Shown here: one piece after another, positions 31,307 to 64,000 of the stretch
How positions within the stretch are numbered: position 1 is the first letter of the stretch
Layout of the letters: every line of letters begins with the position of its first letter
Assembly (NCBI GenBank): GCA_045540335.1
Contig: JAZQHC010000045.1
Coordinates: 85,108 to 149,107 of the forward strand
Direction: 5' to 3'
DNA length: 64,000 nucleotides
From: Eubacteriales bacterium
Lineage (GTDB): Bacteria > Bacillota > Clostridia > Oscillospirales > CAG-272
Notes under the pieces: model-generated
What the model was told of the DNA's origin: nothing
Seen by the model: the letters and a program-made list of their open reading frames with translations, nothing else
Databases searched by the model: none
Translations under genes and position numbers: made by a program

Positions 31307-32695
31307 TTACTTTATATCAGAATCATCAAATGTGTCGCCGCATTCAGGGCAGAATTTCGGGGGATTTGCGGGATCGGCAGGTTCCCAACCGCATTTATCA
31401 CAACGGTAAAGCCTTTCGCCTGCAGGTTTTTTAGCACCGCATTCAGGACAGAATTTCCCCTTATTTACTGCACCGCAAGCGCAAGTCCAACCTTCAGCAG
31501 GCTTTTTAGCACCGCATTCCATGCAGAAATTACCGGTAGCTTCTGCGCCGCAAGCGCATTTCCAAGTATTTGCATTTTTTACTTCAGGCTTTTTAGCACC
31601 GCATTCAGGGCAGAATTTACCCGTTGCTGTTGCGCCGCAAGCACATTTCCAACCATCGGCAGGCTTTTGTGCCGGTTGTATGGGTTGTTGTTGACCCATA
31701 GAATAAAGATTTTGTGCGTTCATGCCGCCGTTAGCCATAGCCATGTTCATACCCATAAAGCCCATCATTGCACCGTTTTCGTTAGCGGCAGCGGTTTTCA
31801 TAGCATCAACCTGACCGCCTACCAAGCGTGCAGCAGCAACATTGGGGTTAAGCGTCATAGCGTTTTCTTCCCATTCGGTGATCTTTTCGCGCTGTTTTTC
31901 GGGAATGGAAGGTACACCAAGGTTCATAGAGAACACCTCTATACCTCTTTTACCCCATTTTTCAACAAGCTGTTTGTTCAATGCATCAGCCAATTCCGTA
32001 GCGTGTGCGGGAATTTGATCGTAGAATACGCCGTTTGCAGACAATACAGCAAGTGCAGGCTGAAGTTCTGCAATAAGCTCGCCCTTCAACATACTGTCGA
32101 TTTTGTCGCGCGTATAATCAGATTCTACGTTACCGCATACGTTCGTATAGAATTTAAGCGGGTCTGCAATTTTGTAAGAATAAATACCGTTACAACGCAA
32201 ATCTACCGACATTTTAAAGCCAAGTTCTTCGTTGATAACTACGCGGAAAGGCACAGGGTTAGGTGTACCGAATTTATTATCGGGAATTTCTTTTAAGTTG
32301 AAATAATATATTCTTTGGTCCTTTCCCGTATCGCCGCCGTAGGTAAATCTTTTACCAATAGCTTTGAATGTTTCGAGAATGCTTGTACCCAAAGAGCCTG
32401 CGAAGATGCTGGGCTCTGTTGAAGAATCGTATGTAAATTCGCCGGGTTCAGCGCAAAATTCAACAACCTTTCCCTGCTCTACTATAATCATACATTGACC
32501 GTCTGCGATAGCAACACCGGAACCGTTGGAAATAATGTTTTCTTCGCCTTTTGTATTAGAAGAACGCGAAGATGTACGTTTTTGACCTTTTGTAACGAGA
32601 ACGTCTGCTGCAAGTGCATCGCAGTAAAAGAACTCTTTCCATTGGTCGGCAAGTACACCGCCGGCTGCGCCTGAAATAGCTTTAATAAGTCCCAT
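31307..32695 (-). CDS. SPFH (band-7)-like domain protein of the YdjI family with four tandem C-terminal zinc-ribbon repeats
   Basis: The N-terminus MGLIKAISGAAGGVLADQWKEFF resembles B. subtilis YdjI. The C-terminus has three near-identical units of W-x-C-A-C-G-A-x-x-x-G-x-F-C-x-E-C-G-A-K-K-P plus one degenerate unit. These show up as DNA tandem repeats at about 31320-31700. Confidence 0.6.
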   Translation of the reverse strand: MGLIKAISGAAGGVLADQWKEFFYCDALAADVLVTKGQKRTSSRSSNTKGEENIISNGSGVAIADGQCMIIVEQGKVVEFCAEPGEFTYDSSTEPSIFAGSLGTSILETFKAIGKRFTYGGDTGKDQRIYYFNLKEIPDNKFGTPNPVPFRVVINEELGFKMSVDLRCNGIYSYKIADPLKFYTNVCGNVESDYTRDKIDSMLKGELIAELQPALAVLSANGVFYDQIPAHATELADALNKQLVEKWGKRGIEVFSMNLGVPSIPEKQREKITEWEENAMTLNPNVAAARLVGGQVDAMKTAAANENGAMMGFMGMNMAMANGGMNAQNLYSMGQQQPIQPAQKPADGWKCACGATATGKFCPECGAKKPEVKNANTWKCACGAEATGNFCMECGAKKPAEGWTCACGAVNKGKFCPECGAKKPAGERLYRCDKCGWEPADPANPPKFCPECGDTFDDSDIK

Positions 32696-51999: not shown

Positions 52000-53883
52000 G
52001 TGGCAATTATAAAGAAATATATATTTTGGGCACTTTGTACCATTGTTTTTGTGTTGATATTATTTTTAGGGTTCAAAATGCGCGAGGACACGCTTCCGAG
52101 TTTTTGCATAAATACTGAATTCGGCACAGAAAAAATTGAAATATTCGATGATAAAAACGGTAACTACTATCTATTCATTCCTGCATATGCTGATCTTAAA
52201 CAGATATCCGTTTTTTGTGACGAAAACCATACTTTCGCTTTAGAAAATATCATTTTATCTAATGAAATGCTGTGTGATGATTTCGAATTAAATAAGCCGT
52301 ATATTTTCAAAAGAGACAACGAACACTTGGCAACATTTTGGTTTTATAAATCTTCTAATATTGCAACTATGTATATTGAAACCGTATCGGGCGATATGGA
52401 TTACATCCATGAAAACAAAGATCATGAAGAAACAGTTTCGGTTACTTTATATACATCAGACGGAAGCGTCAAATACCATAACGATTACAGTACTTTAAAG
52501 GGACGCGGAAATGCCACTTGGAATTTTGATAAGCGCCCGTATTCATTAACGTTACCTGCAAAAGCCGATCTGCTTGGTATGGGCAGTTCAGATGCTTGGG
52601 TTCTTTTATCAAATTCACTTGACGAAACTAATCTTAACAACTACTTGGTCTATAATCTCGCTGCGAATGTTGGTCTCGGTTGGACACCGGAATGTGATTG
52701 GATTGATCTATATTTAAACGGAGAATATAGCGGATTATATCTGCTTACTGAAAAAATAGATATCGAAAGCAGTAAATTAAACTTAAATACCGTTGCCGGA
52801 GATTTTTTGTGTAAAATCGATATTCAAGGTCGTTGGGAATCTATACGGAATCCGTTTTTAACCGATGCAGGACGTACCGTTGAAATCAGTTTTCCGCAGG
52901 CGCTTACGCAGTCGGATTATTCAAGAATAATTGAACACGTAAATCAAATGGAAAAAACGATTTTAACTTTCGAAAACTTAAATGAAGAACCGATAATTGA
53001 TTTAGATACGTGGATTTGCAGATATTTGATTGACGAAATTTCCGGAAATGTCGATTCAGATCTTACAAGCAGCTATTTCTATTTTTCTGATGGAGTATTT
53101 TACGCCGGTCCTGTTTGGGATTATGACGTTTCGTTAGGAAACAGCATGCGAAACAGAGATCCTTATTCTTTTGTAGCAAAAAATGCACAAAAATCGCAAA
53201 CCTACATTTCCCTATATTATCCGTCGCTTTATAAGAATAATTTCTTTTATGATCGTATGATTCTAATTTATCGTACAGTCTTTTTACCGCAAGTAGAAAA
53301 AATAATCGAATTTGAAATAGACGAATTATCTGCACATATAAGTAATGCTGCCGAAATGAACAGTATCCGCTGGGATTCGATGTACGACGAAAATCAGACT
53401 TTAACCTCAAATAACAACACGGTGCGCAGTTGTGATGAGTTGAAAAAATACTTGCGAAAGAGACTTGATTTTTTAAATAGCGCGTGGTTAGACGGCAAGG
53501 ATTTCTGTACCATACAGTTTGAACATACCGCTAATCAACCATACTGGTGTACTTCAGTAGAATCGGGTACATGTTTGCAAAACATGTACGAAGATATTAA
53601 ATCTATCACTTGGCTTGATTCTTTAACGGGTGAAATATTCGATTTCAGCAAGCCGATCACTAAAGACATGCTCCTGGTTGCCAAACATACTCCAACTGAT
53701 AGTACTGCCGCGCCGGGATATTCAAGCTTTACATTCGCGACGCGCGATTACATAGTAATTTTTTCTTCTGCAGTTTTATTTATTTTACTATTTGTTTTTG
53801 CATTCTTCGATATCAGACATAGATATAAAGAAAGGAGGAATGTTGATGAATGTAAACGAACAAAAATATCGTCACGAGATTAA
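52000..53883 (+). CDS. cotH: CotH-family atypical protein kinase (spore-coat protein H family), membrane anchored
   Basis: It has an N-terminal transmembrane segment. The CotH-domain motif is AGPVWDYDVSLGN. It shows the classic association with the downstream VTC and DUF4956 genes. It uses a GTG start with a GGAGGA RBS. Confidence 0.65.
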   Translation: MAIIKKYIFWALCTIVFVLILFLGFKMREDTLPSFCINTEFGTEKIEIFDDKNGNYYLFIPAYADLKQISVFCDENHTFALENIILSNEMLCDDFELNKPYIFKRDNEHLATFWFYKSSNIATMYIETVSGDMDYIHENKDHEETVSVTLYTSDGSVKYHNDYSTLKGRGNATWNFDKRPYSLTLPAKADLLGMGSSDAWVLLSNSLDETNLNNYLVYNLAANVGLGWTPECDWIDLYLNGEYSGLYLLTEKIDIESSKLNLNTVAGDFLCKIDIQGRWESIRNPFLTDAGRTVEISFPQALTQSDYSRIIEHVNQMEKTILTFENLNEEPIIDLDTWICRYLIDEISGNVDSDLTSSYFYFSDGVFYAGPVWDYDVSLGNSMRNRDPYSFVAKNAQKSQTYISLYYPSLYKNNFFYDRMILIYRTVFLPQVEKIIEFEIDELSAHISNAAEMNSIRWDSMYDENQTLTSNNNTVRSCDELKKYLRKRLDFLNSAWLDGKDFCTIQFEHTANQPYWCTSVESGTCLQNMYEDIKSITWLDSLTGEIFDFSKPITKDMLLVAKHTPTDSTAAPGYSSFTFATRDYIVIFSSAVLFILLFVFAFFDIRHRYKERRNVDECKRTKISSRD

Positions 53884-54571
53884 ATATTTGGTTAGTACAG
53901 CTCAAATTCCCCTTTTGGAAAGCAGGATTAAATGTTTGATGTCGCGCGATTCACACACCGGACCTAACGGGATATACAATATACGCAGCTTATATTTCGA
54001 TGATTACGATAATAGCTGTTTTTACGAAAACGAAAATGGAACCGACCCCAGAGAAAAGTTTCGAATAAGAATTTATAATCATTCAGACAAGCGAATTTCC
54101 TTGGAATGCAAAAGGAAAATATGCGGAAAAACGCAAAAGGATTCTTGCATTCTCTCTTTGCAGGAAGCACAAGGGTTGATACATGGAAAACCTTTGTTGC
54201 CGACGGAATCAACGCCGATACTTCTAAGGCGATTTTTGATAGAAATGAAAACGCGTTATTTTCGCCCCGCTGTTATAGTTGAATACGAACGCATTCCATA
54301 CATTTACAAAAACGGCAATGTTCGCGTTACGTTTGATACAAAAATTTCTTCTTCATCAAATGTAAATGATTTTTTTGAAGATGCGTTACCTAAAAGACCG
54401 ATCATGCCATCAGGACAGCATTTGATGGAAGTAAAATTCGATGAATATCTTCCGGATTTCATTTACAGAAGTCTTAATTTAGGAAAACTTCAGCAAACAA
54501 CTTATTCAAAATATTACTTGTGCAGAAAATATGCATTAAATAAAGGAGAAGCCAATAATGTCTTTTTATGA
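53846..54571 (+). CDS. VTC-domain (CYTH-like, polyphosphate-polymerase-like) protein
   Basis: The protein family is conserved immediately downstream of cotH in Clostridia. The start was chosen at the ATG after the AAAGGAGG RBS; the track begins upstream at 53792. Confidence 0.6.
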   Translation: MNVNEQKYRHEIKYLVSTAQIPLLESRIKCLMSRDSHTGPNGIYNIRSLYFDDYDNSCFYENENGTDPREKFRIRIYNHSDKRISLECKRKICGKTQKDSCILSLQEAQGLIHGKPLLPTESTPILLRRFLIEMKTRYFRPAVIVEYERIPYIYKNGNVRVTFDTKISSSSNVNDFFEDALPKRPIMPSGQHLMEVKFDEYLPDFIYRSLNLGKLQQTTYSKYYLCRKYALNKGEANNVFL

Positions 54572-55232
54572 TATTTTCAAAAAATCTTTTTTAGAAGGAT
54601 TTGAATCTACTGATATTAACGTTTATACTGCTGCAGCAGCAATGATGATTACGTGTGTACTCGCACTATACATCTTCACTATTTACCGTGTGTTAACGAG
54701 AAAAACATTTTATTCAAAAAGCTTCAATATTTCTTTGGCGGGAATTGCACTTATAACTTGCGGAATAATTCTTACTATTCAATCAAGTCTTGTGGTTTCT
54801 CTCGGTATGGTAGGTGCATTATCTATCGTTCGATTCAGAACTGCTATAAAAGATCCCATGGATTTAATGTTCTTATTCTGGTCTATTGCCGTCGGCATTA
54901 TTTGCGGTGTAGGCATGGCTGAAATCGCTGTTATGCTTAGTGTTGTACTGACGTTAGGTGTTCTTTTGCTTAATCAACTGCCAGTAGCAAAAGCACCGTT
55001 GATTTTGGTTGTAAATGCAAAAGATATAAATGCCGAATGTGATATCATGCTTGTTGTAAAAAAATACGCAAAATCACCTGCAATAAAATCAAGAAATATG
55101 ACTAAAGATAATCTCGATATTATTGTAGAATTACGCACAAGCGAAGGAAGCAATTTGATTAAGGATATCCTGGATCTGCAATCGGTATCTTCGGCATCTT
55201 TAATGTCACACGACGGCGAAGTTACATTTTAA
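54558..55232 (+). CDS. DUF4956-like membrane protein, third member of the CotH-VTC-DUF4956 trio
   Basis: It has four to five transmembrane segments, overlaps the VTC stop by 14 nt, and keeps the usual gene order. Confidence 0.55.
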   Translation: MSFYDIFKKSFLEGFESTDINVYTAAAAMMITCVLALYIFTIYRVLTRKTFYSKSFNISLAGIALITCGIILTIQSSLVVSLGMVGALSIVRFRTAIKDPMDLMFLFWSIAVGIICGVGMAEIAVMLSVVLTLGVLLLNQLPVAKAPLILVVNAKDINAECDIMLVVKKYAKSPAIKSRNMTKDNLDIIVELRTSEGSNLIKDILDLQSVSSASLMSHDGEVTF

Positions 55233-55304: not shown

Positions 55305-58300
55305 ATGAATTTTAAGAAATCTTTGTCAATTTTTATTTCGGCGGCGATGCTTTTTTCGCCAATCACATCTGTATATGCTTACGATGGTGAAAATACAACT
55401 ATAATAACGCACGAAATAACAAAAGTAAATGCATCATCAGGCACACTTGATAATAATATATCTTGGACTCTTGATGATAACGGTACACTTACAATAAGCG
55501 GAAATGGTGCTATTGCAGAAGGGGCATTTAGTGACTTGTATGATTTCACTGAATCATCCTCTATCAAAAAAGTAATAATCAAGAATGGAGTTACAGGTAT
55601 AGGCGATAGTGCCTTTTATGAATGCTCAAGCCTTACTTCCATTTCAATTCCCGCCAGCGTTACAAGTATAGCAGATTACGTATTTTCCGGTTGCTTTAAT
55701 CTTGCGACAATAACAGTAAATGCAAATAACAAACACTATTCAAGTGATGAACACGGTGTACTTTTTAACAAAAATAAAACGAACCTTGTTCAATACCCGA
55801 CGGGTAACACAAGAGTGTCATATACCATACCCAGCAGTGTTACAAAAATAGACGATTGGGCATTTTCGTATTGCTCAAATCTTACATCGGTGACAATTTC
55901 CGAGGGCGTTGCAAGCATAGGAAATTACGCATTTTACGAGTGTTCAGCTCTTACGTCCATTTCCCTTCCCGGAAGTATTACCAACGTGGGAGACAGTGCG
56001 TTTGAGTATTGTTCAAGACTTACGACAGTTGCGATATCCTCCGGTGTTGCAAGTATAGGCGATTGTGCATTTTATAACTGTTCTGCTCTTGAAAAAATAA
56101 CCGTTGACGAAAGCAATAAAAATTATTCCAGCGATGAGTACGGCGCCCTTTGGGATAAAAACAAAACCAAACTTATCCAATATCCTATTGGTAGCGGAAA
56201 AACGTCATACTCTATTCCCGAAAGCGCTACGGAAATAGCTGATTCCGCATTCAACGGTTGCTACGTGCTTACAGATATATTTTACGGCGGAAATGAAGAC
56301 GATTGGTCTGATATATACATAGGATTCGGAAACGACCAGCTTTATAACGTTACAGTACATTTTGGTCAAGAAACCTGCCCGCATGTTTATAGTGATTGGA
56401 TAACGGATATTGAATTTAAATGTGAAACAGGCGGCAAAAAACACAAGGAGTGTTCGATATGCGGTGATGTCGTAACAGAAGTTTCACCCGCCGTCAGTCA
56501 CTCATTCAGCGAATGGACAACCAATGCTTCAGGAGAATACGAAAGGCTGTGCTCTGCTTGCGGATATAAGCAAGTCAGACCGTTTTCTGTAGTATCCTCC
56601 GGTATATGCGGCAATACACTCACATGGACTCTTGATGTTAAAGGTACACTAACAATAAGCGGAATTGGCAATATAAACGAAGGTGCATTTAGCTTTTTGT
56701 ATGATTTTGCTGAATCATCTTCAATTAAAAATCTCGTAATTGAAGATGGAATTACAGGCATAGGAAATTATGCATTTTACGAATGCTCAAATATTGCTTC
56801 AATTACTATCTCAAGCAGTGTTAAAAGTATAGGCGATCATGCTTTTTCCGACTGTTCAAGCCTCGCATCGGTTATAATTCCCGACAGTGTTGTGACAATA
56901 GGCGGTTCTGCGTTTTCCGGTTGTTCAAGCCTTAAATCACTTACAATAGGTAATGGTGTTACAAATATAGATAGCTCTGCATTTTCCGGTTGCTCTGCAC
57001 TTACGTCTGCAAAAATGGGCAACAAAGTTGCAAGTATAGGCAGTTCAGTATTCTTTGGTTGCTCAAGCCTTACTTCAATTACGATTCCGGATAGTGTTAC
57101 AACTATAGGCGACAGTGCATTTAACGGCTGTTCAAGCATTACATCAATTGTAATTCCCCATAATGTTACAACTATAGGCGAGTGGGCGTTTTTTAACTGT
57201 TCCAACCTTGAAAGAATAACAGTTGACGAAAACAACAAATATTACTCCAACGATGAATACGGCGTACTTTTCAATAAAAATAAAACAACACTTATTAAGT
57301 ACCCTGAAAAAAATACACAAACGGTATATACAATTCCCGATGGAGTCGTAAGTGTATCCGCTTCCGCATTTCAATATTCTTTAAATCTTAAATCTGTTAT
57401 CATTCCCAACAGCGTTACAAGTATAGGTAATAGTGCGTTTGAATACTGTTCAAGTCTTACATCTGTAACAATTCCAAATAGTGTAACGAATATAGGCGCA
57501 GGTGTATTTATCGGTTGTTCAAGTCTTGCCAAAATAACAGTAGATGGTGATAATAAATATTACTCAAGCGATGGACAAGGTGTACTTTTTAATAAAAATA
57601 AAACAATGCTTATTCAATATCCTATAGGTAACACAAAAACGTCATATGATGTTCCCGGCGGCGTTTCTGATATAGGCGAGTGGGCATTCCAATATTGTTC
57701 AAGTCTTACTTATATTTCTTTGCCAAATAGTGTAAATAATATATCCTCCTACGCATTTTGGAACTGCAAAAACATTACGGAAGTTCGCTATGACGGTATA
57801 GAAGATGAATGGAACAGAATTGAAATAGCAGACGGCAACGATGATCTTTTAGCTGCAACAGTTACATATGTTCCTACCGAAACAAAAGAGGTTGGCTTAA
57901 GCTTTCTTACAGAACCTCAGAAAACTGTATATACATACGGAGAAGATCTTTCTCTCAACGGCGCGGTGATTGTAGTAATGTATTCCGATGGAAGCTATAC
58001 CGAGATTAAAGATTACACCGTAACAGGGTACGATAAATATAGCTTTGGTGTGCAAAATGTTTACATTACTCGCGGTGATTTTTCACTTGAATTTAAAGTA
58101 TCCATCGTTCCCGCTGAAGCAACTTCGGTAACAGAGCCTATAAACGAAGGAACAACTGTTAGAGAGTTGTCTGCTTTATATCCCTCTTATACACTCTTTG
58201 TATTTAACAATGACAAAGCAACTTTGCTTACAGACAGTGCAATTTTGAAAACAGGCTGTATCATTCAACTTGTTAGCGACAATTCCTTGATTGACAGTAT

Positions 58301-58739: not shown

Positions 58740-58770
58740 TTGATATTTTGCCGATAACGTGGTATAATTG
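58740..58770 (+). promoter_or_regulatory. fic promoter (TTGCCG...TGgTATAAT extended -10). A 9-bp inverted repeat, TATCGGCAA / TTGCCGATA, spans its -35 region.
   Basis: The sequence is ttgccgataacgtggtataat. The inverted-repeat arms are at 58703-58711 and 58748-58756. Confidence 0.5.
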
Positions 58771-58798
58771 TTACAGGAAAACTTGTCAGGAGGTAGTT

Positions 58799-59683
58799 AT
58801 GGAATATATATCTGTCGCAAAAATGGCTGAAAAATGGGGGATTTCTGAACGTAGTGTGCGTAATTACTGCGCACAAGGCAGAATTACCGACGCCAAACTT
58901 ATCGGCAAAATATGGTACATCCCGGAGGATGCACAGAAGCCTGAGCGTGCGAACAAGAAAAAAGATGCATCTACATTGTTGCAGTTACTGCAGGAACAGA
59001 AAGCTTCTAAGATGACAGGTGGTATCTATCATAAAATTCAGATTGATTTGACATACAATTCAAACCATATTGAAGGTAGCCGTCTGACTCACGATCAGAC
59101 CAGATATATTTTTGAAACAAATACAATCGGTTTTGAAAATGAGGCTGTAAATGTTGATGATGTAGTCGAGACAGCCAACCATTTCAGATGCATTGATATT
59201 GTGATTGATCGAGCTGCTTCTGTACTGAAGGAAAAGCTCATCAAAGAATTGCATGCAGTTCTGAAAGCTTCAACCAGCGACAGTCGTAAAGATTGGTTTG
59301 CGGTAGGAGAGTATAAAAAGCTACCCAATGAAGTGGGAGGTAATACTACAACTCTCCCTGAGAATGTTTCTGATGAAATGTGCAAGTTATTGGCTGACTA
59401 CAATGCGATATCGGTTAAAACATTTGAAGATATTGTGGCTTTTCACGTGGCTTTTGAACGTATACATCCATTCCAGGACGGAAACGGACGTATAGGACGA
59501 TTGATTATGTTTAAGGAGTGTCTTAAGCACAATATCGTGCCGTTTATCATTGAAGATAATATGAAGTTATTCTATTATCGCGGTCTCAAAGAATGGGAAA
59601 GAGAGAAAGGTTACCTTATGGATACATGCTTTGCAGCTCAAGACCGCTTTAAATCATATTTAGATTATTTCAGAATTGCGTAG
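58799..59683 (+). CDS. fic: Fic-family protein (AMPylase fold) with an N-terminal HTH. It is class II, with an N-terminal inhibitory SxxxEG helix.
   Basis: The canonical Fic motif HPFQDGNGRIGR is present. The inhibitory motif SNHIEG lies upstream. The N-terminus MEYISVAKMAEKWGISERSVRNYC is an HTH. The start was chosen at the ATG at 58799, which has an AGGAGG RBS; the track TTG at 58748 lies upstream of the -10 element. Confidence 0.8.
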   Translation: MEYISVAKMAEKWGISERSVRNYCAQGRITDAKLIGKIWYIPEDAQKPERANKKKDASTLLQLLQEQKASKMTGGIYHKIQIDLTYNSNHIEGSRLTHDQTRYIFETNTIGFENEAVNVDDVVETANHFRCIDIVIDRAASVLKEKLIKELHAVLKASTSDSRKDWFAVGEYKKLPNEVGGNTTTLPENVSDEMCKLLADYNAISVKTFEDIVAFHVAFERIHPFQDGNGRIGRLIMFKECLKHNIVPFIIEDNMKLFYYRGLKEWEREKGYLMDTCFAAQDRFKSYLDYFRIA

Positions 59684-59735
59684 TGAATTATTATTTGTAA
59701 TTTATGATTTTGGGTAGCATAGTTATACAGATAAA

Positions 59736-59854
59736 CAAAAAAGACCTCTGAAAGAGGTCAATTGTGCACACGCTGTGCAATCGGCAGAGCCGACGATTTG
59801 AGAATTCTTTTATTTGAACTCGTAGTGTAATTTATAAGGGATATAAATTACACT
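59736..59854 (-). ncRNA. Candidate tracrRNA: an antisense small RNA in the cas9 5' intergenic region
   Basis: The minus strand has a perfect TTGACA (59886-59881)-17-TATAAT (59863-59858) promoter, so the transcript starts near 59851. About 116 nt of RNA follow: GUAAUUUAUAUCCCUUAUAAAUUACACUACGAGUUCAAAUAAAAGAAUUCUCAAAUCGUCGGCUCUGCCGAUUGCACAGCGUGUGCACAAUU. It ends in the terminator GACCUCUuucAGAGGUCUUUUUUG. Internal hairpins are UCGGCucuGCCGA and GCACAgcgUGUGC. GAGUUCAAAUAAAAG resembles the SpCas9 tracrRNA segment AAGUUAAAAUAAGG. Confidence 0.45.
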
Positions 59855-59887
59855 GTCATTATATAACAAAAAGGAAGGTTTGTCAAT

Positions 59888-62800
59888 ATGAAAAACGAAA
59901 AATATTATATAGGACTCGATATAGGCACAGATTCTGTCGGTTATGCAGTAACCGACGAAGAATACAATCTTTGTAAATTTAAAGGTGAACCTATGTGGGG
60001 TGTCACCTTGTTTGATCCGGCACAACTCGCTGTTAATCGCAGAGAGTTCCGTGCAGCAAGAAGAAGACTTGACCGCAGACAGCAAAGAGCGAAATTTATG
60101 ATGGACCTTTTTGCAAAAGAAATAGCAAAAGTTGATGAGGATTTTTACAGGAGAATAAAAGAAAGTTATCTGTATCCTGAAAATGAGGGAAAAAAAGTAA
60201 GACTTTTTGGATCTTTCGCAGAACAAAAAGCGTATGCTGAAAAATATCCGACAATACATCATCTGATATGTGAATTGATGAACGATCCGTCACCGCACGA
60301 TGTAAGACTTGTTTATATCGCTTGTTCCTGGCTCGTTGTCCACAGAGGACATTTTCTCAGTGAGGTCGATAAACAAAACATAGATGAAGTTACGGAATTT
60401 AAATCTGTGTGGGATAGGTTTACTTTGTATATTACACGTTCCGAATATTCTCTGCCGTGGGAAGAAAGTGTAAATATTAAAGAAATTGAAGATGTTTTCA
60501 AGGCTAAACTTACTGTTACCAAAAAGTCAAAAGCACTGGCTGGGGTATTATTCAAAGGAAAAAAAGCTCCCAAAGAGATAAATGAATCTTATGAATACAA
60601 CTATGAAACAGTGCTAAAACTTCTTTGCGGCGGCAAAGATTTCCTTCAAAAGCTGTTTGGTAAAGAAGAATATGCCGAGCTTGAAGAAAAATCTCTTGCA
60701 TTGAATATGGAAGACGAAAAAATAGCGGTAATAATGCAATCACTCGACGAGTCCGACGCTGAATTCGTCTCAGTTCTTAAAGCAGTTTACGATTGGTCTG
60801 TTTTGGTAAATATACTTAAAGGTAAAAAAACAATATCCGAAGCAAAGATTGCGGTATATGAGCAGCACAAAGAAGACCTTGAATTTCTGAAAAAGTTTAT
60901 CAAAAAATATGTTCCGAATAAATACGATGAAGTTTTCCGTTCGTCATCGAATGCAAATAATTATGCCGCTTACATAGGAAAGAACAAAACGTCCGGTGAA
61001 GATGTAAACATTAAAAAAGCAAAAAGCAGAGAAGACTTTTGTAAATATATTCTGCCAATCATAAAATCCGTCAAGCCTGATGAAAACGATATACAAAAGT
61101 ATAATGAAACGGTTTCAAGACTCGAAATAAACGACTTTATGCCGAAACAGGTTGACGGCGATAACAGAGTTATTCCTTATCAGCTTTACTATTATGAATT
61201 AAATAAAATACTCAATAACGCAAAAGCGTACGTCGATTTTCTCGAAAAAACCGACGAAGACGGTCTTTCAGGTGCTGATAAAATATTGTCGATCATGGAA
61301 TTCAGAGTGCCGTATTACGTAGGTCCTTTGGTTGAAAACAAAAATAAGGATCGCAAACGCAACTCATGGATGGTACGTAAAGCGGAAGGAAAGATATATC
61401 CTTGGAATTTTAAGGATAAAGTTGATCTTGATAAGAGCGAGGAAGAATTTATTGCCCGTATGACAAATTCCTGCACATATCTTCCCGGGGAAGACGTGTT
61501 GCCTAAAAATTCACTCGTGTATTCTGCGTTTGAGGTTCTCAATGAAATAAATAATATCAAAGTCAACGGTAAAGATATATCCGTTCAATTGAAGCAAAGT
61601 ATTTACGAAAATGTTTTTATGCAGTATGATAAGGTTACTCTTAAACGCATAAAACAGCATTTGATATTAAACGGTTACGCAGCGGATGATGTAGTATCCG
61701 GTATAGATATCACCGTGAAATCTTCACTTAAACCGTTCAGAGCGTTCAGAAATCTTGTGTCAAACGGACTTATTACGTATTCCGATGCGGAAAATATTAT
61801 AAACCGTGCAACGTATTCCGAAGATAAAATAAGATTTAAGAATTGGCTTATTGAAAAATACCCGCATTTGCCTGAAAACGATATAAGATATATCATAGGA
61901 TTAAAATTCAAAGAATTCGGCAGACTGTCAAGAAAACTTTTGTGCGGAATAGAGGGCGCGGTGAACGAAAACACGGGCGAATATATGCCGATCATCCGTG
62001 CGATGTGGGAAACAAATCTCAATTTTATGCAGATAATCAACTGTGACAGCTTTGAATTTTCCGAAAAGATCAAAAAAATCGTTGATGAATATTACGGTAA
62101 AGAAAAGAAGAGTCTTTCTGAAAGACTTGATGAAATGTATGTTTCAAATGCGGTCAAACGTCCGATAATCCGTACGCTTGACATACTTAAGGACATAGTC
62201 AAGGTGCAAAAAAGAGACCCCGATATGATATTCATCGAAATGGCAAGAGGGGCAAACGAAGATCAGAAGGGAAGAACTAAAACAAGACTCGATCAGATAA
62301 AGGAGCTTTACAAAAAGGTCGATACAGAGGATGTACGAAGACTTTCGGATATTCTTGAAGACTGGGGCGATACGGCGCATAATAAGCTCCGGAGCGATAA
62401 GATATTCCTGTATTTTATCCAGCTCGGCAAATGTCTTTATACAGGCGATCCCATAGCCCTTGATTCTGTTCTTTCAGGAAACGGTGATTATAATATTGAA
62501 CACATTTATCCTCGTAGCTTTGTAAAGGATGATAGTGTTATAAACAATAAAATACTCGTTGATTCGAAAGCAAACGGAGATAAAAGCGATAGTTATCCGA
62601 TAGATCCGTCAATACAGAATAAAATGCGTGCTTATTGGACGTTTCTTAATAAAAACGGATTGATAAGTGATGAAAAGTATAAAAGGCTTATCAGAACTAC
62701 ACATTTCACAGATGAGGAGAAATTTGAATTTATCAACCGTCAGCTTGTTGAAACACGTCAGTCAACAAAAGTCATAGCAACGCTTCTTAAAGAGCTTTAT

Positions 62801-63982
62801 CCGAAAGCGGAAATAGTATATGTAAAAGCAGGTCTTGTATCGGATTTCCGTCAGAAGTTCGATCTGCTTAAATCACGTGCGGTAAATGATCTGCATCACG
62901 CAAAGGACGCATATCTTAATATCGTGGTCGGCAATGTGTGGCATCATAAATTCAGTAAACGCTTCTACATAAAAACTGCCGATAATAACGTAAAACCCGA
63001 GATCGTATTTGCACGTAAACAAATATGCGGAAATAAAGTTATCTGGCGTGGTGCAGATGATCTTAATTATGTAATAAAGACTGCAAGAAAAAACACACCC
63101 AAAGTTACAAAATATGCTTTTTGCAGAAGAGGCGGTTTCTTTGATCAGATGCCCGTCGCCGCATCTTCAGACCTTGTTCCGAGAAAAAAAGATTTGCCTA
63201 CTGAAATATACGGCGGATACAATAAACCAACTGCATCATTCTTTGTCCTTGTAGGATATACAACAGGCAAAAAGCGTGACGTTATGGTAATGCCCGTTGA
63301 GCTTTTGTATGCAAACGAGTTTTTAAGTGATCCTGACTATGCAGAAACGTATGCAAGAAATACGGTAAGCAGTATTCTGAAAAAAGACGTCAATTCGGTT
63401 GAAATACTTCTTAACGGAAGAATATTGAAGGTCAATACCGTTCTTTCTCTTGACGGCTTCAAAATGTGTATCACAGGAAAATCGAGTGGAGGAAAAAAGT
63501 TGGGTGTTTCAGTTATGGAAAGCTTCAAAACCACTGCTGAATTTGAAAGGTATATAAAAAAGCTTGAGTCTTTCATTGATAAAAAGAAGAAAAACTCAAG
63601 GATCGTTTACAGTGAGCGGTATGATGAAATTTCATCAGAAAAAAATATTGTCCTGTATGATATCTACGTTGAAAAATTGCAAAAGTCCTTGTATGCAAAA
63701 CGTCCTGCAAACCCGGTTGACTCGTTGGTGAAGGGAAGAGAAAATTTTGAAAAGCTTTCCGTACCCGATCAGGCAGACGTACTTTTGCAAATTCAAGGCT
63801 TGTTTGGCAGGGCGGTCAAAGCTGATCTTTCAAACATTGGCGGTGTTTCTTCAGCAGGTGTTGCAACGCTGTCGTCAAATGTTTCTAACTGGAAAAAGAA
63901 CTATAAAGACGTGCGTATTATTGATGCTTCACCATCAGGACTTTATGAAAAAACTTCCGATAACCTGCTCGATCTGCTATGA
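59888..63982 (+). CDS. cas9: Cas9 (type II, SpCas9-like, 1364 aa; likely II-A)
   Basis: RuvC-I is YIGLDIGTDSVGYAV. A bridge-helix-like RRRLDRRQQR is present. RuvC-II is IFIEMARG. HNH is NIEHIYPRSFVKDDSVINNKILVDSKANGDKSD. RuvC-III is LHHAKDAYL. The N-terminus is collinear with SpCas9, for example EKYPTIHHL against EKYPTIYHL. Confidence 0.95.
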   Translation: MKNEKYYIGLDIGTDSVGYAVTDEEYNLCKFKGEPMWGVTLFDPAQLAVNRREFRAARRRLDRRQQRAKFMMDLFAKEIAKVDEDFYRRIKESYLYPENEGKKVRLFGSFAEQKAYAEKYPTIHHLICELMNDPSPHDVRLVYIACSWLVVHRGHFLSEVDKQNIDEVTEFKSVWDRFTLYITRSEYSLPWEESVNIKEIEDVFKAKLTVTKKSKALAGVLFKGKKAPKEINESYEYNYETVLKLLCGGKDFLQKLFGKEEYAELEEKSLALNMEDEKIAVIMQSLDESDAEFVSVLKAVYDWSVLVNILKGKKTISEAKIAVYEQHKEDLEFLKKFIKKYVPNKYDEVFRSSSNANNYAAYIGKNKTSGEDVNIKKAKSREDFCKYILPIIKSVKPDENDIQKYNETVSRLEINDFMPKQVDGDNRVIPYQLYYYELNKILNNAKAYVDFLEKTDEDGLSGADKILSIMEFRVPYYVGPLVENKNKDRKRNSWMVRKAEGKIYPWNFKDKVDLDKSEEEFIARMTNSCTYLPGEDVLPKNSLVYSAFEVLNEINNIKVNGKDISVQLKQSIYENVFMQYDKVTLKRIKQHLILNGYAADDVVSGIDITVKSSLKPFRAFRNLVSNGLITYSDAENIINRATYSEDKIRFKNWLIEKYPHLPENDIRYIIGLKFKEFGRLSRKLLCGIEGAVNENTGEYMPIIRAMWETNLNFMQIINCDSFEFSEKIKKIVDEYYGKEKKSLSERLDEMYVSNAVKRPIIRTLDILKDIVKVQKRDPDMIFIEMARGANEDQKGRTKTRLDQIKELYKKVDTEDVRRLSDILEDWGDTAHNKLRSDKIFLYFIQLGKCLYTGDPIALDSVLSGNGDYNIEHIYPRSFVKDDSVINNKILVDSKANGDKSDSYPIDPSIQNKMRAYWTFLNKNGLISDEKYKRLIRTTHFTDEEKFEFINRQLVETRQSTKVIATLLKELYPKAEIVYVKAGLVSDFRQKFDLLKSRAVNDLHHAKDAYLNIVVGNVWHHKFSKRFYIKTADNNVKPEIVFARKQICGNKVIWRGADDLNYVIKTARKNTPKVTKYAFCRRGGFFDQMPVAASSDLVPRKKDLPTEIYGGYNKPTASFFVLVGYTTGKKRDVMVMPVELLYANEFLSDPDYAETYARNTVSSILKKDVNSVEILLNGRILKVNTVLSLDGFKMCITGKSSGGKKLGVSVMESFKTTAEFERYIKKLESFIDKKKKNSRIVYSERYDEISSEKNIVLYDIYVEKLQKSLYAKRPANPVDSLVKGRENFEKLSVPDQADVLLQIQGLFGRAVKADLSNIGGVSSAGVATLSSNVSNWKKNYKDVRIIDASPSGLYEKTSDNLLDLL

Positions 63983-64000
63983 GTTGGCGTACTGTTGTTA

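What the first reader, a model, noticed from the sequence alone, without database searches (positions are those of the whole stretch)
59888..64000. Complete SpCas9-sized type II cas9 ends 18 nt before the window edge; the rest of the CRISPR-Cas locus should lie just downstream
- All four catalytic blocks are intact: RuvC-I D, RuvC-II E, HNH H/N and RuvC-III HxxD. The enzyme should therefore be a functional nuclease.
- Its length and N-terminal collinearity with SpCas9 point to subtype II-A, where cas1-cas2-csn2 and the array follow cas9.
- No CRISPR repeats, cas1, cas2 or csn2 are inside this window.
- The surrounding region is accessory in character. Fic lies upstream, and a dockerin/LRR protein lies further upstream.
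Basis: partly seen in the sequence, partly recalled or inferred. Interest (0 to 1): 0.7.

Follow-up and report, generated by a model that had tools for sequence, protein, structure and literature searches.

The report
Intact type II-A Cas9 with tracrRNA
The window ends with a complete, apparently active Cas9 gene of an ordinary type II-A CRISPR system from a gut-type Clostridia genome; its guide-scaffold RNA gene lies just upstream, and indirect evidence puts the remaining genes just past the window edge.

Summary
ORF 59888-63982 (+) encodes a 1364-aa Cas9. It matches TIGR01865 end to end at 856 bits. D11, E784, H872, N887/N896, H1004 and D1007 are all intact.

The II-A interpretation is supported:
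- The cas9 stop overlaps an ATG (ATGA), and the last 21 nt read MSWRTVV, the Cas1 N-terminus of all close relatives.
- Relatives at 68-78% identity carry cas9-cas1-cas2-csn2 followed by a 36-nt repeat array.
- A full-length Cas2 (106 aa) and a full-length Csn2 (221 aa) each sit on an NCBI contig of 154,069 bp. That is the length of the only contig carrying this exact Cas9.

It lies about 59853->59737 on the minus strand, with a perfect promoter, an anti-repeat, conserved hairpins and a terminator.

One caveat: the closest retrievable relative (87%) has deleted cas1-csn2, so loss of the adaptation genes does occur in this clade.

The PAM could not be inferred.

This is an ordinary new member of a known kind. 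The only mildly unusual feature is a conserved hairpin at the tracrRNA 5' end that masks part of the anti-repeat.

The parts
59888..63982 (+). cas9 CDS, 1364 aa, with RuvC-I/II/III, bridge helix, REC, HNH and PI domains. Catalytic residues are D11, E784, H872, N887/N896, H1004 and D1007.
   Evidence: It is identical to database protein P0001.
59871..59878 (+). Ribosome-binding site AAGGAAGG, 9 nt upstream of the cas9 ATG.
   Evidence: Read directly from the sequence.
63979..64000 (+). Start of cas1. The ATG overlaps the cas9 stop (ATGA). The first 7 codons read MSWRTVV, and the gene is cut by the window end.
   Evidence: Relatives with a full 289-aa Cas1 have the same N-terminus and the same 4-nt overlap.
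59858..59886 (-). tracrRNA promoter, TTGACA-17 nt-TATAAT (12 of 12 consensus positions). The -35 box lies 2 nt from the cas9 start codon, on the opposite strand.
   Evidence: The CATATTGACA arrangement recurs in most relatives of the hairpin-bearing clade.
59737..59853 (-). Predicted tracrRNA gene, about 115 nt, ends +/- 3 nt. In order it has a 5' hairpin, the anti-repeat, a nexus-like segment, two conserved hairpins and an intrinsic terminator.
   Evidence: - Fold energy is -42.5 kcal/mol, z = -6.9.
- The consensus structure across 9 relatives keeps 11 of 23 pairs through changes on both sides.
- Rfam has no match.
59812..59841 (-). Anti-repeat UCCCUUAUAAAUUACACUACGAGUUCAAAU. It is complementary to the 5' 29 nt of the clade's repeat GTTTGAGAGTAGTGTAATTTTATAAGGGACTCAAAC.
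   Evidence: - The best match to that repeat anywhere in the window is here.
- Duplex energy is -30.9 kcal/mol against a mean of -11.0 for shuffles.
- The anti-repeat is identical to that of L022, whose array carries this repeat.
59824..59854 (-). 13-bp hairpin at the tracrRNA 5' end (AGUGUAAUUUAUA / UCCCU / UAUAAAUUACACU). A repeat-like 5' arm pairs with the upper-stem part of the anti-repeat.
   Evidence: All G.U wobbles in relatives are legal only on this strand.
59737..59759 (-). Intrinsic terminator of the tracrRNA: GACCUCUUUCAGAGGUC followed by UUUUUU.
   Evidence: The stem shows covariation across relatives.

Best explanation
This is the effector end of a canonical type II-A CRISPR-Cas locus in an uncultured Clostridia/Eubacteriales genome.

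**Shown**
- An intact 1364-aa Cas9.
- A divergently oriented tracrRNA gene immediately upstream.
- The first codons of cas1, translationally coupled to cas9 through an ATGA overlap.

**Inferred**
- cas1 (about 870 nt), cas2 (321 nt) and csn2 (666 nt) follow.
- Next come a roughly 100-nt leader with its own promoter and an array of 36-nt GTTTGAGAGTAGTGTAATTTTATAAGGGACTCAAAC repeats with 30-nt spacers, all within about 2 kb of the window edge.

**Mechanism (from established type II-A biology)**
- The tracrRNA anti-repeat pairs with pre-crRNA repeats, and RNase III and Cas9 process the duplex.
- Cas9:crRNA:tracrRNA cleaves PAM-flanked protospacers using the HNH and RuvC sites.
- Cas1-Cas2-Csn2, together with Cas9, acquire new spacers.
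For: **Cas9 identity and integrity**
- Supported.
- The closest solved structure is FrCas9 (9jwk, E 6e-212, full length). It comes from a II-A system whose tracrRNA lies upstream of cas9 and is transcribed in the opposite direction (PMC12926199, PMC8931148).

**cas1 start**
- The window's last bases encode the Cas1 N-terminus.

**Locus architecture in relatives**
- L009, L010-12, L022, L025/26, L003, L006, L007 and L008 all carry cas9-cas1-cas2-csn2-array.

**Link to the window's own contig**
- Cas9 P0001, Csn2 P0349 and Cas2 P0357 are all recorded on an NCBI contig of 154,069 bp.

**Likely leader and repeat**
- L027 has a Csn2 identical to P0349 at 216 of 221 positions.
- In L027, csn2 is followed by a TTGACA-17-TATAAT leader promoter and the first repeat.

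**tracrRNA**
- Promoter, terminator, fold, conservation and complementarity to the repeat are all supported.
Against: - The DNA beyond position 64000 could not be retrieved. The presence of cas2 and csn2 therefore rests on equal contig length, and a full cas1 and the array of this genome are unseen.
- The closest retrievable relative, L001 (87% aa), has an internal deletion fusing cas1 codon ~70 to the last ~17 codons of csn2. It keeps only cas9, the tracrRNA and a 10-repeat array.
- L001 shares a 95-99% identical 3' 2 kb of cas9 with the window.
- L002 has also lost the adaptation module, and L005 lacks csn2.
- No expression or activity data exist, and the PAM is unknown.
Confidence: 0.88

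Rival explanations
1. Adaptation-deficient locus. As in relative L001, an internal deletion has removed most of cas1, all of cas2 and most of csn2. Only cas9, the tracrRNA and a frozen array would remain downstream of the window.
For: - L001 (87% Cas9 identity) has exactly this state, with a cas1 remnant that also begins MSWRTVV.
- The window and L001 share a near-identical 3' 2 kb of cas9 right up to the window edge.
- L002 shows an independent loss.
- Many short Cas1 N-terminal fragments sit on long contigs.
Against: - Full-length Cas2 and Csn2 lie on an NCBI contig of the same 154,069-bp length as the contig carrying this exact Cas9.
- L029 is 95% identical to L001's Cas9 yet has an uninterrupted cas1 for at least 96 codons. 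The L001 deletion is therefore strain-specific.
Confidence: 0.08
2. The cas9 is intact in sequence but the locus is non-functional or silent. Possible reasons are no promoter, no array, or a decayed tracrRNA, leaving an orphan on its way to loss.
For: - No sigma-70-like promoter for cas9 was found on the + strand in the 204-nt upstream spacer. That spacer is almost filled by the antisense tracrRNA gene.
- No array lies in the window.
Against: - All catalytic residues are present and the protein is full length.
- The tracrRNA has a perfect promoter, a terminator and a structure conserved across relatives.
- cas9 could be transcribed by read-through from upstream, which is inference.
Confidence: 0.03
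3. The locus belongs to another type II subtype, II-C or II-B, rather than II-A.
For: One distant relative, L005 (38% identity), has cas1-cas2 without csn2.
Against: - The protein is SpCas9-sized with Cas9_REC and Cas9_PI domains.
- All close relatives encode Csn2.
- A Csn2 is on the same-length contig.
- No cas4 was seen in any relative.
Confidence: 0.01

Closest known systems
Faecalibaculum rodentium Cas9 (FrCas9), type II-A; PDB 9JWK/9JWN
   Same: - It is the best solved-structure match, aligned end to end: query residues 2-1361 against chain residues 11-1370, E 6e-212.
- Domain order and catalytic motifs are the same.
- The locus also has cas1, cas2, csn2 and an array, with the tracrRNA upstream of cas9 and transcribed in the opposite direction (PMC8931148).
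   Different: - The PI domain matches only weakly (E 8e-20).
- Of the six FrCas9 PAM-contact residues (N1137, Y1198, R1213, T1214, K1321, Q1334; PMC12926199), the window protein has K, N, K, S, K, S. Only K1321 is identical.
- The NNTA/NRTA PAM therefore cannot be transferred to this enzyme.
Streptococcus pyogenes Cas9 (SpCas9) and its type II-A locus
   Same: - Size is similar (1364 vs 1368 aa), and the two are collinear over residues 3-1024 (E ~1e-128).
- D10, E762, H840, N863, H983 and D986 all have equivalents here (SpCas9 numbering from established knowledge).
- The tracrRNA lies upstream on the opposite strand.
- The repeat starts GTTT(T/G)AGAG, and the lower-stem/bulge/nexus layout is GAGUUCAAAUAAAAG against AAGUUAAAAUAAGG (the SpCas9 sequence is from memory).
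   Different: - The PI domain gives no significant sequence match to SpCas9.
- There is no tracr-L natural single guide: no lower-stem mimic and no 11-bp promoter match.
- The spacer between the tracrRNA 5' end and cas9 is only about 35 nt.
Cas9 of Eubacteriales MAG JAZPYO010000053 (L001), the closest retrievable locus
   Same: - Cas9 is 87% identical overall, 99% in the RuvC-II/HNH/RuvC-III region and 92% in the PI domain.
- The tracrRNA is of the same kind, and a BspA-LRR/dockerin gene lies upstream.
   Different: - L001 has deleted cas1 through csn2.
- It carries a different gene in place of Fic upstream of the tracrRNA.
- Its REC lobe is only 79% identical.

Membership tests
Cas9 (TIGR01865 cas_Csn1; type II effector) | Full-length match to the family model above the curated cutoff. 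| tested here: met
   The score is 856 bits against a cutoff of 100, covering profile positions 1-1070 of 1070. The Pfam REC, PI, HNH_4, RuvC and BH domains are all above their gathering scores.
Cas9 (TIGR01865 cas_Csn1; type II effector) | Intact RuvC (D, E, H/D) and HNH (H, N) catalytic residues. | tested here: met
   D11, E784, H872, N887/N896, H1004 and D1007 align with the corresponding motifs of solved Cas9 structures.
Type II-A CRISPR-Cas locus | csn2 present in the locus; this is the subtype signature gene. | tested here: met
   - The test is indirect. Csn2 P0349 (221 aa, TIGR01866 136 bits) is on an NCBI contig of 154,069 bp, the length of the only contig carrying the exact Cas9.
- Adjacency was not read.
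- All relatives at 68-78% identity have csn2.
Type II-A CRISPR-Cas locus | cas1 and cas2 adjacent to cas9. | tested here: inconclusive
   - cas1: only the start codon and 7 codons are visible. A deleted remnant in L001 begins identically.
- cas2: P0357 (106 aa, TIGR01573) is on a contig of the same length.
- A full-length cas1 of this genome was not found among the clusters examined.
Type II-A CRISPR-Cas locus | tracrRNA with an anti-repeat complementary to the array repeat. | tested here: met
   - The minus-strand gene at about 59853-59737 has its own promoter and terminator.
- The anti-repeat pairs with the repeat found in L001, L022, L025 and L027.
- This genome's own repeat was not seen.
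Type II-A CRISPR-Cas locus | CRISPR array of about 36-nt repeats downstream of csn2. | not testable with these tools
   - The window has no array, and the source contig could not be fetched.
- In L027, whose Csn2 is 98% identical to P0349, the first repeat follows csn2 by about 100 nt.
tracr-L natural single-guide autoregulation (Workman et al., 10.1101/2020.05.21.102756) | A lower-stem mimic (the 5' end of the repeat, here GTTTGA) upstream of the anti-repeat on the tracrRNA strand. | tested here: not met
   There is no GTTTGA on the minus strand between 59684 and 60400. The 5' arm mimics only the upper stem.
tracr-L natural single-guide autoregulation (Workman et al., 10.1101/2020.05.21.102756) | A match of at least 11 bp between the tracrRNA 5' extension and the cas9 promoter region, flanked by a PAM. 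| tested here: not met
   - Repeated 10-mers in 59684-60400 are the hairpin arms themselves, a third copy of TGTAATTTAT at 59696-59705, and four scattered A/T-rich pairs. None has a copy in the short 5' extension of the tracrRNA.
- The predicted transcription start lies 0-5 nt from the hairpin.
- The PAM is unknown.

The most novel reading that the evidence does not exclude
In this Clostridia II-A clade the tracrRNA is made with its anti-repeat partly masked. A repeat-like 5' arm folds back on the upper-stem half of the anti-repeat, leaving only the lower-stem strand free.

If this is more than a stabiliser of the 5' end, it could act as a toehold gate. Only RNAs carrying a genuine repeat 5' end could then invade and form the Cas9 guide duplex. 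Alternatively, it could tune tracrRNA availability or processing.

The hairpin is kept, with G.U wobbles specific to the tracrRNA strand and with compensatory changes, in relatives whose Cas9 is only 46-87% identical. I found no description of it in the searched literature.
Probability: 0.25. Interest if true: 0.45.

Novelty: new member of a known kind. Interest (0 to 1): 0.15.

Why it matters
It matters little for basic biology. This is one more intact type II-A Cas9 locus from an uncultured gut or rumen-type Clostridia lineage, and the exact protein is already in NCBI.

- **Practical value:** the enzyme is an SpCas9-sized orthologue related to FrCas9. Its PAM-interacting domain differs at most of the FrCas9 PAM-contact residues, so it may offer a different PAM. 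The predicted tracrRNA and repeat given here would allow a single guide to be designed.
- **Evolutionary points:** the clade shows repeated loss of the adaptation genes and a recombination mosaic within cas9.
- **Possible follow-up:** the conserved cis-hairpin on the tracrRNA is a small, testable oddity.

Tried and rejected
**Retrieving the DNA past position 64000**
- Exact-product look-ups of the window Cas9, of P0001 and of Csn2 P0349 found nothing on record.
- A 30-nt junction pattern found nothing in metagenome contigs.
- Protein-guided scans of genome and metagenome contigs returned only relatives at or below 87% identity.

**Csn2 search table**
- No Csn2 cluster in the table showed a 154,069-bp contig, which first suggested that csn2 was absent.
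- That reading was rejected. The table's contig length describes only the cluster representative, and the member list showed P0349 on a 154,069-bp contig.

**Search with L001's 62-aa cas1 remnant**
- It returned only short fragments and not even L001's own remnant, so it was uninformative for the window.

**PAM inference**
- 54 spacers from L001, L010, L022 and L025 had no match in the phage collection.
- Four L001 spacer 3' 22-mers had no exact match in viral contigs.
- Transferring the FrCas9 PAM was rejected because the contact residues differ.

**Other negative results**
- Rfam has no family matching the tracrRNA; the only hit was a chance tmRNA fragment at 55711.
- The tracr-L natural-sgRNA model was rejected.
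- A compositional island was rejected because GC equals the window average.
- The 150-aa minus-strand ORF at 59810-60262 overlaps cas9 and the tracrRNA gene, and I treated it as spurious.
Full report
**Observation**

- The window's last 4.1 kb is one uninterrupted ORF, 59888..63982 on the + strand. It has an ATG start, a TGA stop and 1364 codons, preceded by AAGGAAGG 9 nt upstream. It ends 18 nt before the window edge.
- Pfam finds Cas9_REC (E 2e-130), Cas9_PI (6e-53), HNH_4, Cas9_RuvC and the bridge helix.
- NCBIfam's equivalog model for Cas9 (TIGR01865) scores 856 bits over its whole length.
- The catalytic residues are all present against solved structures: D11 in IGLDIGT (SpCas9 D10), E784 in IFIEMAR, H872 in EHIYP, N887 and N896, and H1004 and D1007 in HHAKD.
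- The best solved relative is FrCas9 from Faecalibaculum rodentium (9jwk, E 6e-212, end to end). SpCas9 aligns over residues 3-1024 at about E-128 (identity of 9jwk from PMC12926199).
- The window holds no CRISPR array and no cas1, cas2 or csn2 homologue.

*cas1 start.* The last 21 nt are not just spacer.
- The cas9 TGA overlaps an ATG (ctATGAgttggcgtactgttgtta), and the frame reads MSWRTVV.
- Every close relative has a Cas1 beginning MSWRTVVI(T/A)SRCKLDF with the same 4-nt overlap.

*tracrRNA gene.* The 204-nt spacer between Fic and cas9 is almost filled by a small RNA gene on the minus strand.
- It has a 12-of-12 sigma-70 promoter, TTGACA-17-TATAAT, at 59886..59858. Its -35 box lies 2 nt from the cas9 start codon.
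- It has an intrinsic terminator at 59759..59743 followed by a U-tract.
- The roughly 115-nt RNA folds at -42.5 kcal/mol, z = -6.9.
- It contains UCCCUUAUAAAUUACACUACGAGUUCAAAU. This is complementary, with an SpCas9-like lower stem, bulge and upper stem, to the repeat GTTTGAGAGTAGTGTAATTTTATAAGGGACTCAAAC carried by relatives L001, L022, L025 and L027.
- That repeat's best match anywhere in the window is this site.
- An alignment of nine relatives gives a consensus structure in which 11 of 23 pairs are kept through changes on both sides, mostly in the 3' hairpins and the terminator.
- Rfam has no model for it.
- This is the tracrRNA, placed and oriented as in the S. pyogenes and F. rodentium II-A loci (PMC8931148).

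**What lies downstream**

- The source DNA beyond position 64000 could not be fetched. The evidence is therefore comparative and indirect.
- Relatives with Cas9 at 78% (L009), 71% (L010-12), 70% (L022) and 68% (L025/26) identity all have cas9-cas1(289 aa)-cas2(106)-csn2(221) followed by an array. So do the more distant L003, L006, L007 and L008.
- The closest retrievable locus, L001 (87%), does not.
  - Its cas1 is frameshifted after about codon 41 and then fused to the last ~17 codons of csn2 (…IRVIFCNAS/GKLFKNTKIYTIDDDLCEF*).
  - What remains is cas9, the tracrRNA, a leader and 10 repeats.
- The window and L001 are only 75-85% identical at the nucleotide level over the first 2.1 kb of cas9. 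They are 95-99% identical over the last 2 kb up to the window edge, which is a recombination mosaic. An L001-like deletion was therefore a real possibility.
- Two results argue against that possibility.
  - L029's Cas9 is 95% identical to L001's, yet it has an uninterrupted cas1 for at least 96 codons. The deletion is therefore private to L001's lineage.
  - The exact Cas9 of the window (P0001, verified identical) is recorded on a single NCBI contig of 154,069 bp. A 221-aa Csn2 (P0349) and a 106-aa Cas2 (P0357) are each recorded on an NCBI contig of exactly 154,069 bp. Both pass their NCBIfam equivalog cutoffs.
- L027, whose Csn2 matches P0349 at 216 of 221 positions, shows what follows csn2: a TTGACA-17-TATAAT leader promoter, about 70 nt of leader and the first repeat.
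- I conclude with about 0.88 confidence that the window's locus is a complete II-A system. About 0.08 remains for an adaptation-deleted state.

**Mechanism**

- The mechanism follows established type II-A biology and is inferred here, not shown.
- The tracrRNA pairs with pre-crRNA repeats. Cofolding the predicted tracrRNA with the repeat gives -56.7 kcal/mol, against -48.7 for the two folded separately.
- RNase III and Cas9 mature the guides. Cas9 cleaves PAM-flanked targets with HNH and RuvC. Cas1-Cas2-Csn2 with Cas9 acquire spacers.
- No + strand promoter for cas9 was detected in the spacer. cas9 is probably transcribed through the tracrRNA gene in antisense, from upstream; this is inference.

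**PAM**

- The PAM could not be inferred.
- 54 spacers from four relatives have no match in the phage collection. Four L001 spacers have none in viral contigs.
- Of the six FrCas9 PAM-contact residues reported in PMC12926199, only K1321 is identical in this protein. The others are N1137->K, Y1198->N, R1213->K, T1214->S and Q1334->S.

**The one unusual feature: a hairpin at the tracrRNA 5' end**

- Immediately after the promoter, AGUGUAAUUUAUA (a copy of the repeat's upper-stem part) pairs over 13 bp with the anti-repeat across a UCCCU loop, at 59854..59824 on the minus strand.
- The same hairpin is predicted in L001, L029, L009, L010, L022, L023, L003, L008 and L014, whose Cas9 is 46-87% identical. 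In L025 and L013 the minimum-free-energy fold differs, but the same pairing can be drawn by eye.
- The arm sequences change together. Examples are UGCAGUCCA/UGGAAUUGCA in L003 and GUGAUCACA/UGUGAUUAC in L008. All G.U pairs are legal only on the tracrRNA strand.
- On an unfitted MAFFT alignment, 77% of cells pair against 32-44% for slid controls. The covariation score is reached by 5 of 500 shuffles. This is moderate evidence from 10 related sequences.
- It is not a tracr-L natural single guide by the published criteria (10.1101/2020.05.21.102756).
  - There is no lower-stem mimic.
  - No repeated 10-mer has a copy in the tracrRNA 5' extension.
  - The stem begins 5-6 nt after the -10 box, at about the transcription start.
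- The simplest reading is a 5'-terminal stem-loop that stabilises the RNA until a crRNA repeat displaces it. A gating role is possible but untested.
- One literature search found no description of it.

**Verdict**

- This is a correctly spotted, ordinary type II-A cas9 whose interpretation holds.
- It is a new member of a known kind, and the exact protein is already in a public database.
- Interest is low at 0.15. It rests only on a possibly different PAM and on the small tracrRNA oddity.

Noticed in passing
window 59824-59854 (minus strand); also L001, L003, L008, L009, L010, L013, L014, L022, L023, L025 and L029 upstream of cas9: There is a conserved 5'-terminal hairpin in the tracrRNA. A repeat-like arm pairs with the upper-stem half of the anti-repeat. 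Relatives show compensatory and strand-specific G.U changes. It is absent from the 36-37% identity clade (L006 type) and is not a tracr-L natural sgRNA.
   Followed up: partly
window 59888-63982 compared with L001 10001-14095: cas9 is a recombination mosaic. Nucleotide identity to L001 is 59-86% up to about 62027, then 95-99% from 62028 to the window edge, with a dip to 85-91% at 63228-63527. At the protein level the REC lobe is 79% identical and the nuclease lobe 99%.
   Followed up: partly
L001 14092-14347; L002 3917-4429; L005 4213-5448: The adaptation module has been lost repeatedly in this Cas9 clade. L001 fuses cas1 codon ~70 to the csn2 tail. L002 keeps a 123-aa cas1 remnant directly before the array. 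L005 has cas1-cas2 but no csn2. Many 45-109-aa Cas1 N-terminal fragments sit on contigs of 15-40 kb.
   Followed up: partly
window 59858-59890: The tracrRNA -35 box (TTGACA, minus strand) abuts the cas9 start codon, and the promoter overlies the cas9 ribosome-binding site (CATATTGACAA…). This arrangement recurs in most relatives of the hairpin-bearing clade. No + strand promoter for cas9 was found in the spacer, so cas9 mRNA probably runs antisense through the tracrRNA gene.
   Followed up: no
window 58748-59683: The Fic/HTH gene between the LRR-dockerin gene and the tracrRNA is not syntenic. L029 has the LRR-dockerin gene directly upstream of the tracrRNA and cas9, and L001 has an unrelated 277-aa gene there. 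Fic is therefore a variable insertion at this spot.
   Followed up: partly
window 59696-59705 (+): A third copy of the repeat-like 10-mer TGTAATTTAT lies just after the Fic stop codon. It is not conserved in L001 and is probably chance in A/T-rich sequence.
   Followed up: partly
window 52000-55232: A run of three genes encodes a CotH kinase-like protein, a VTC-domain protein and a DUF4956 protein, upstream of the LRR-dockerin gene.
   Followed up: no
window 31422-31668: There is a 75-nt tandem repeat of 3.1 copies at 70% identity. It is unrelated to CRISPR and is probably a repeat within a coding sequence.
   Followed up: no
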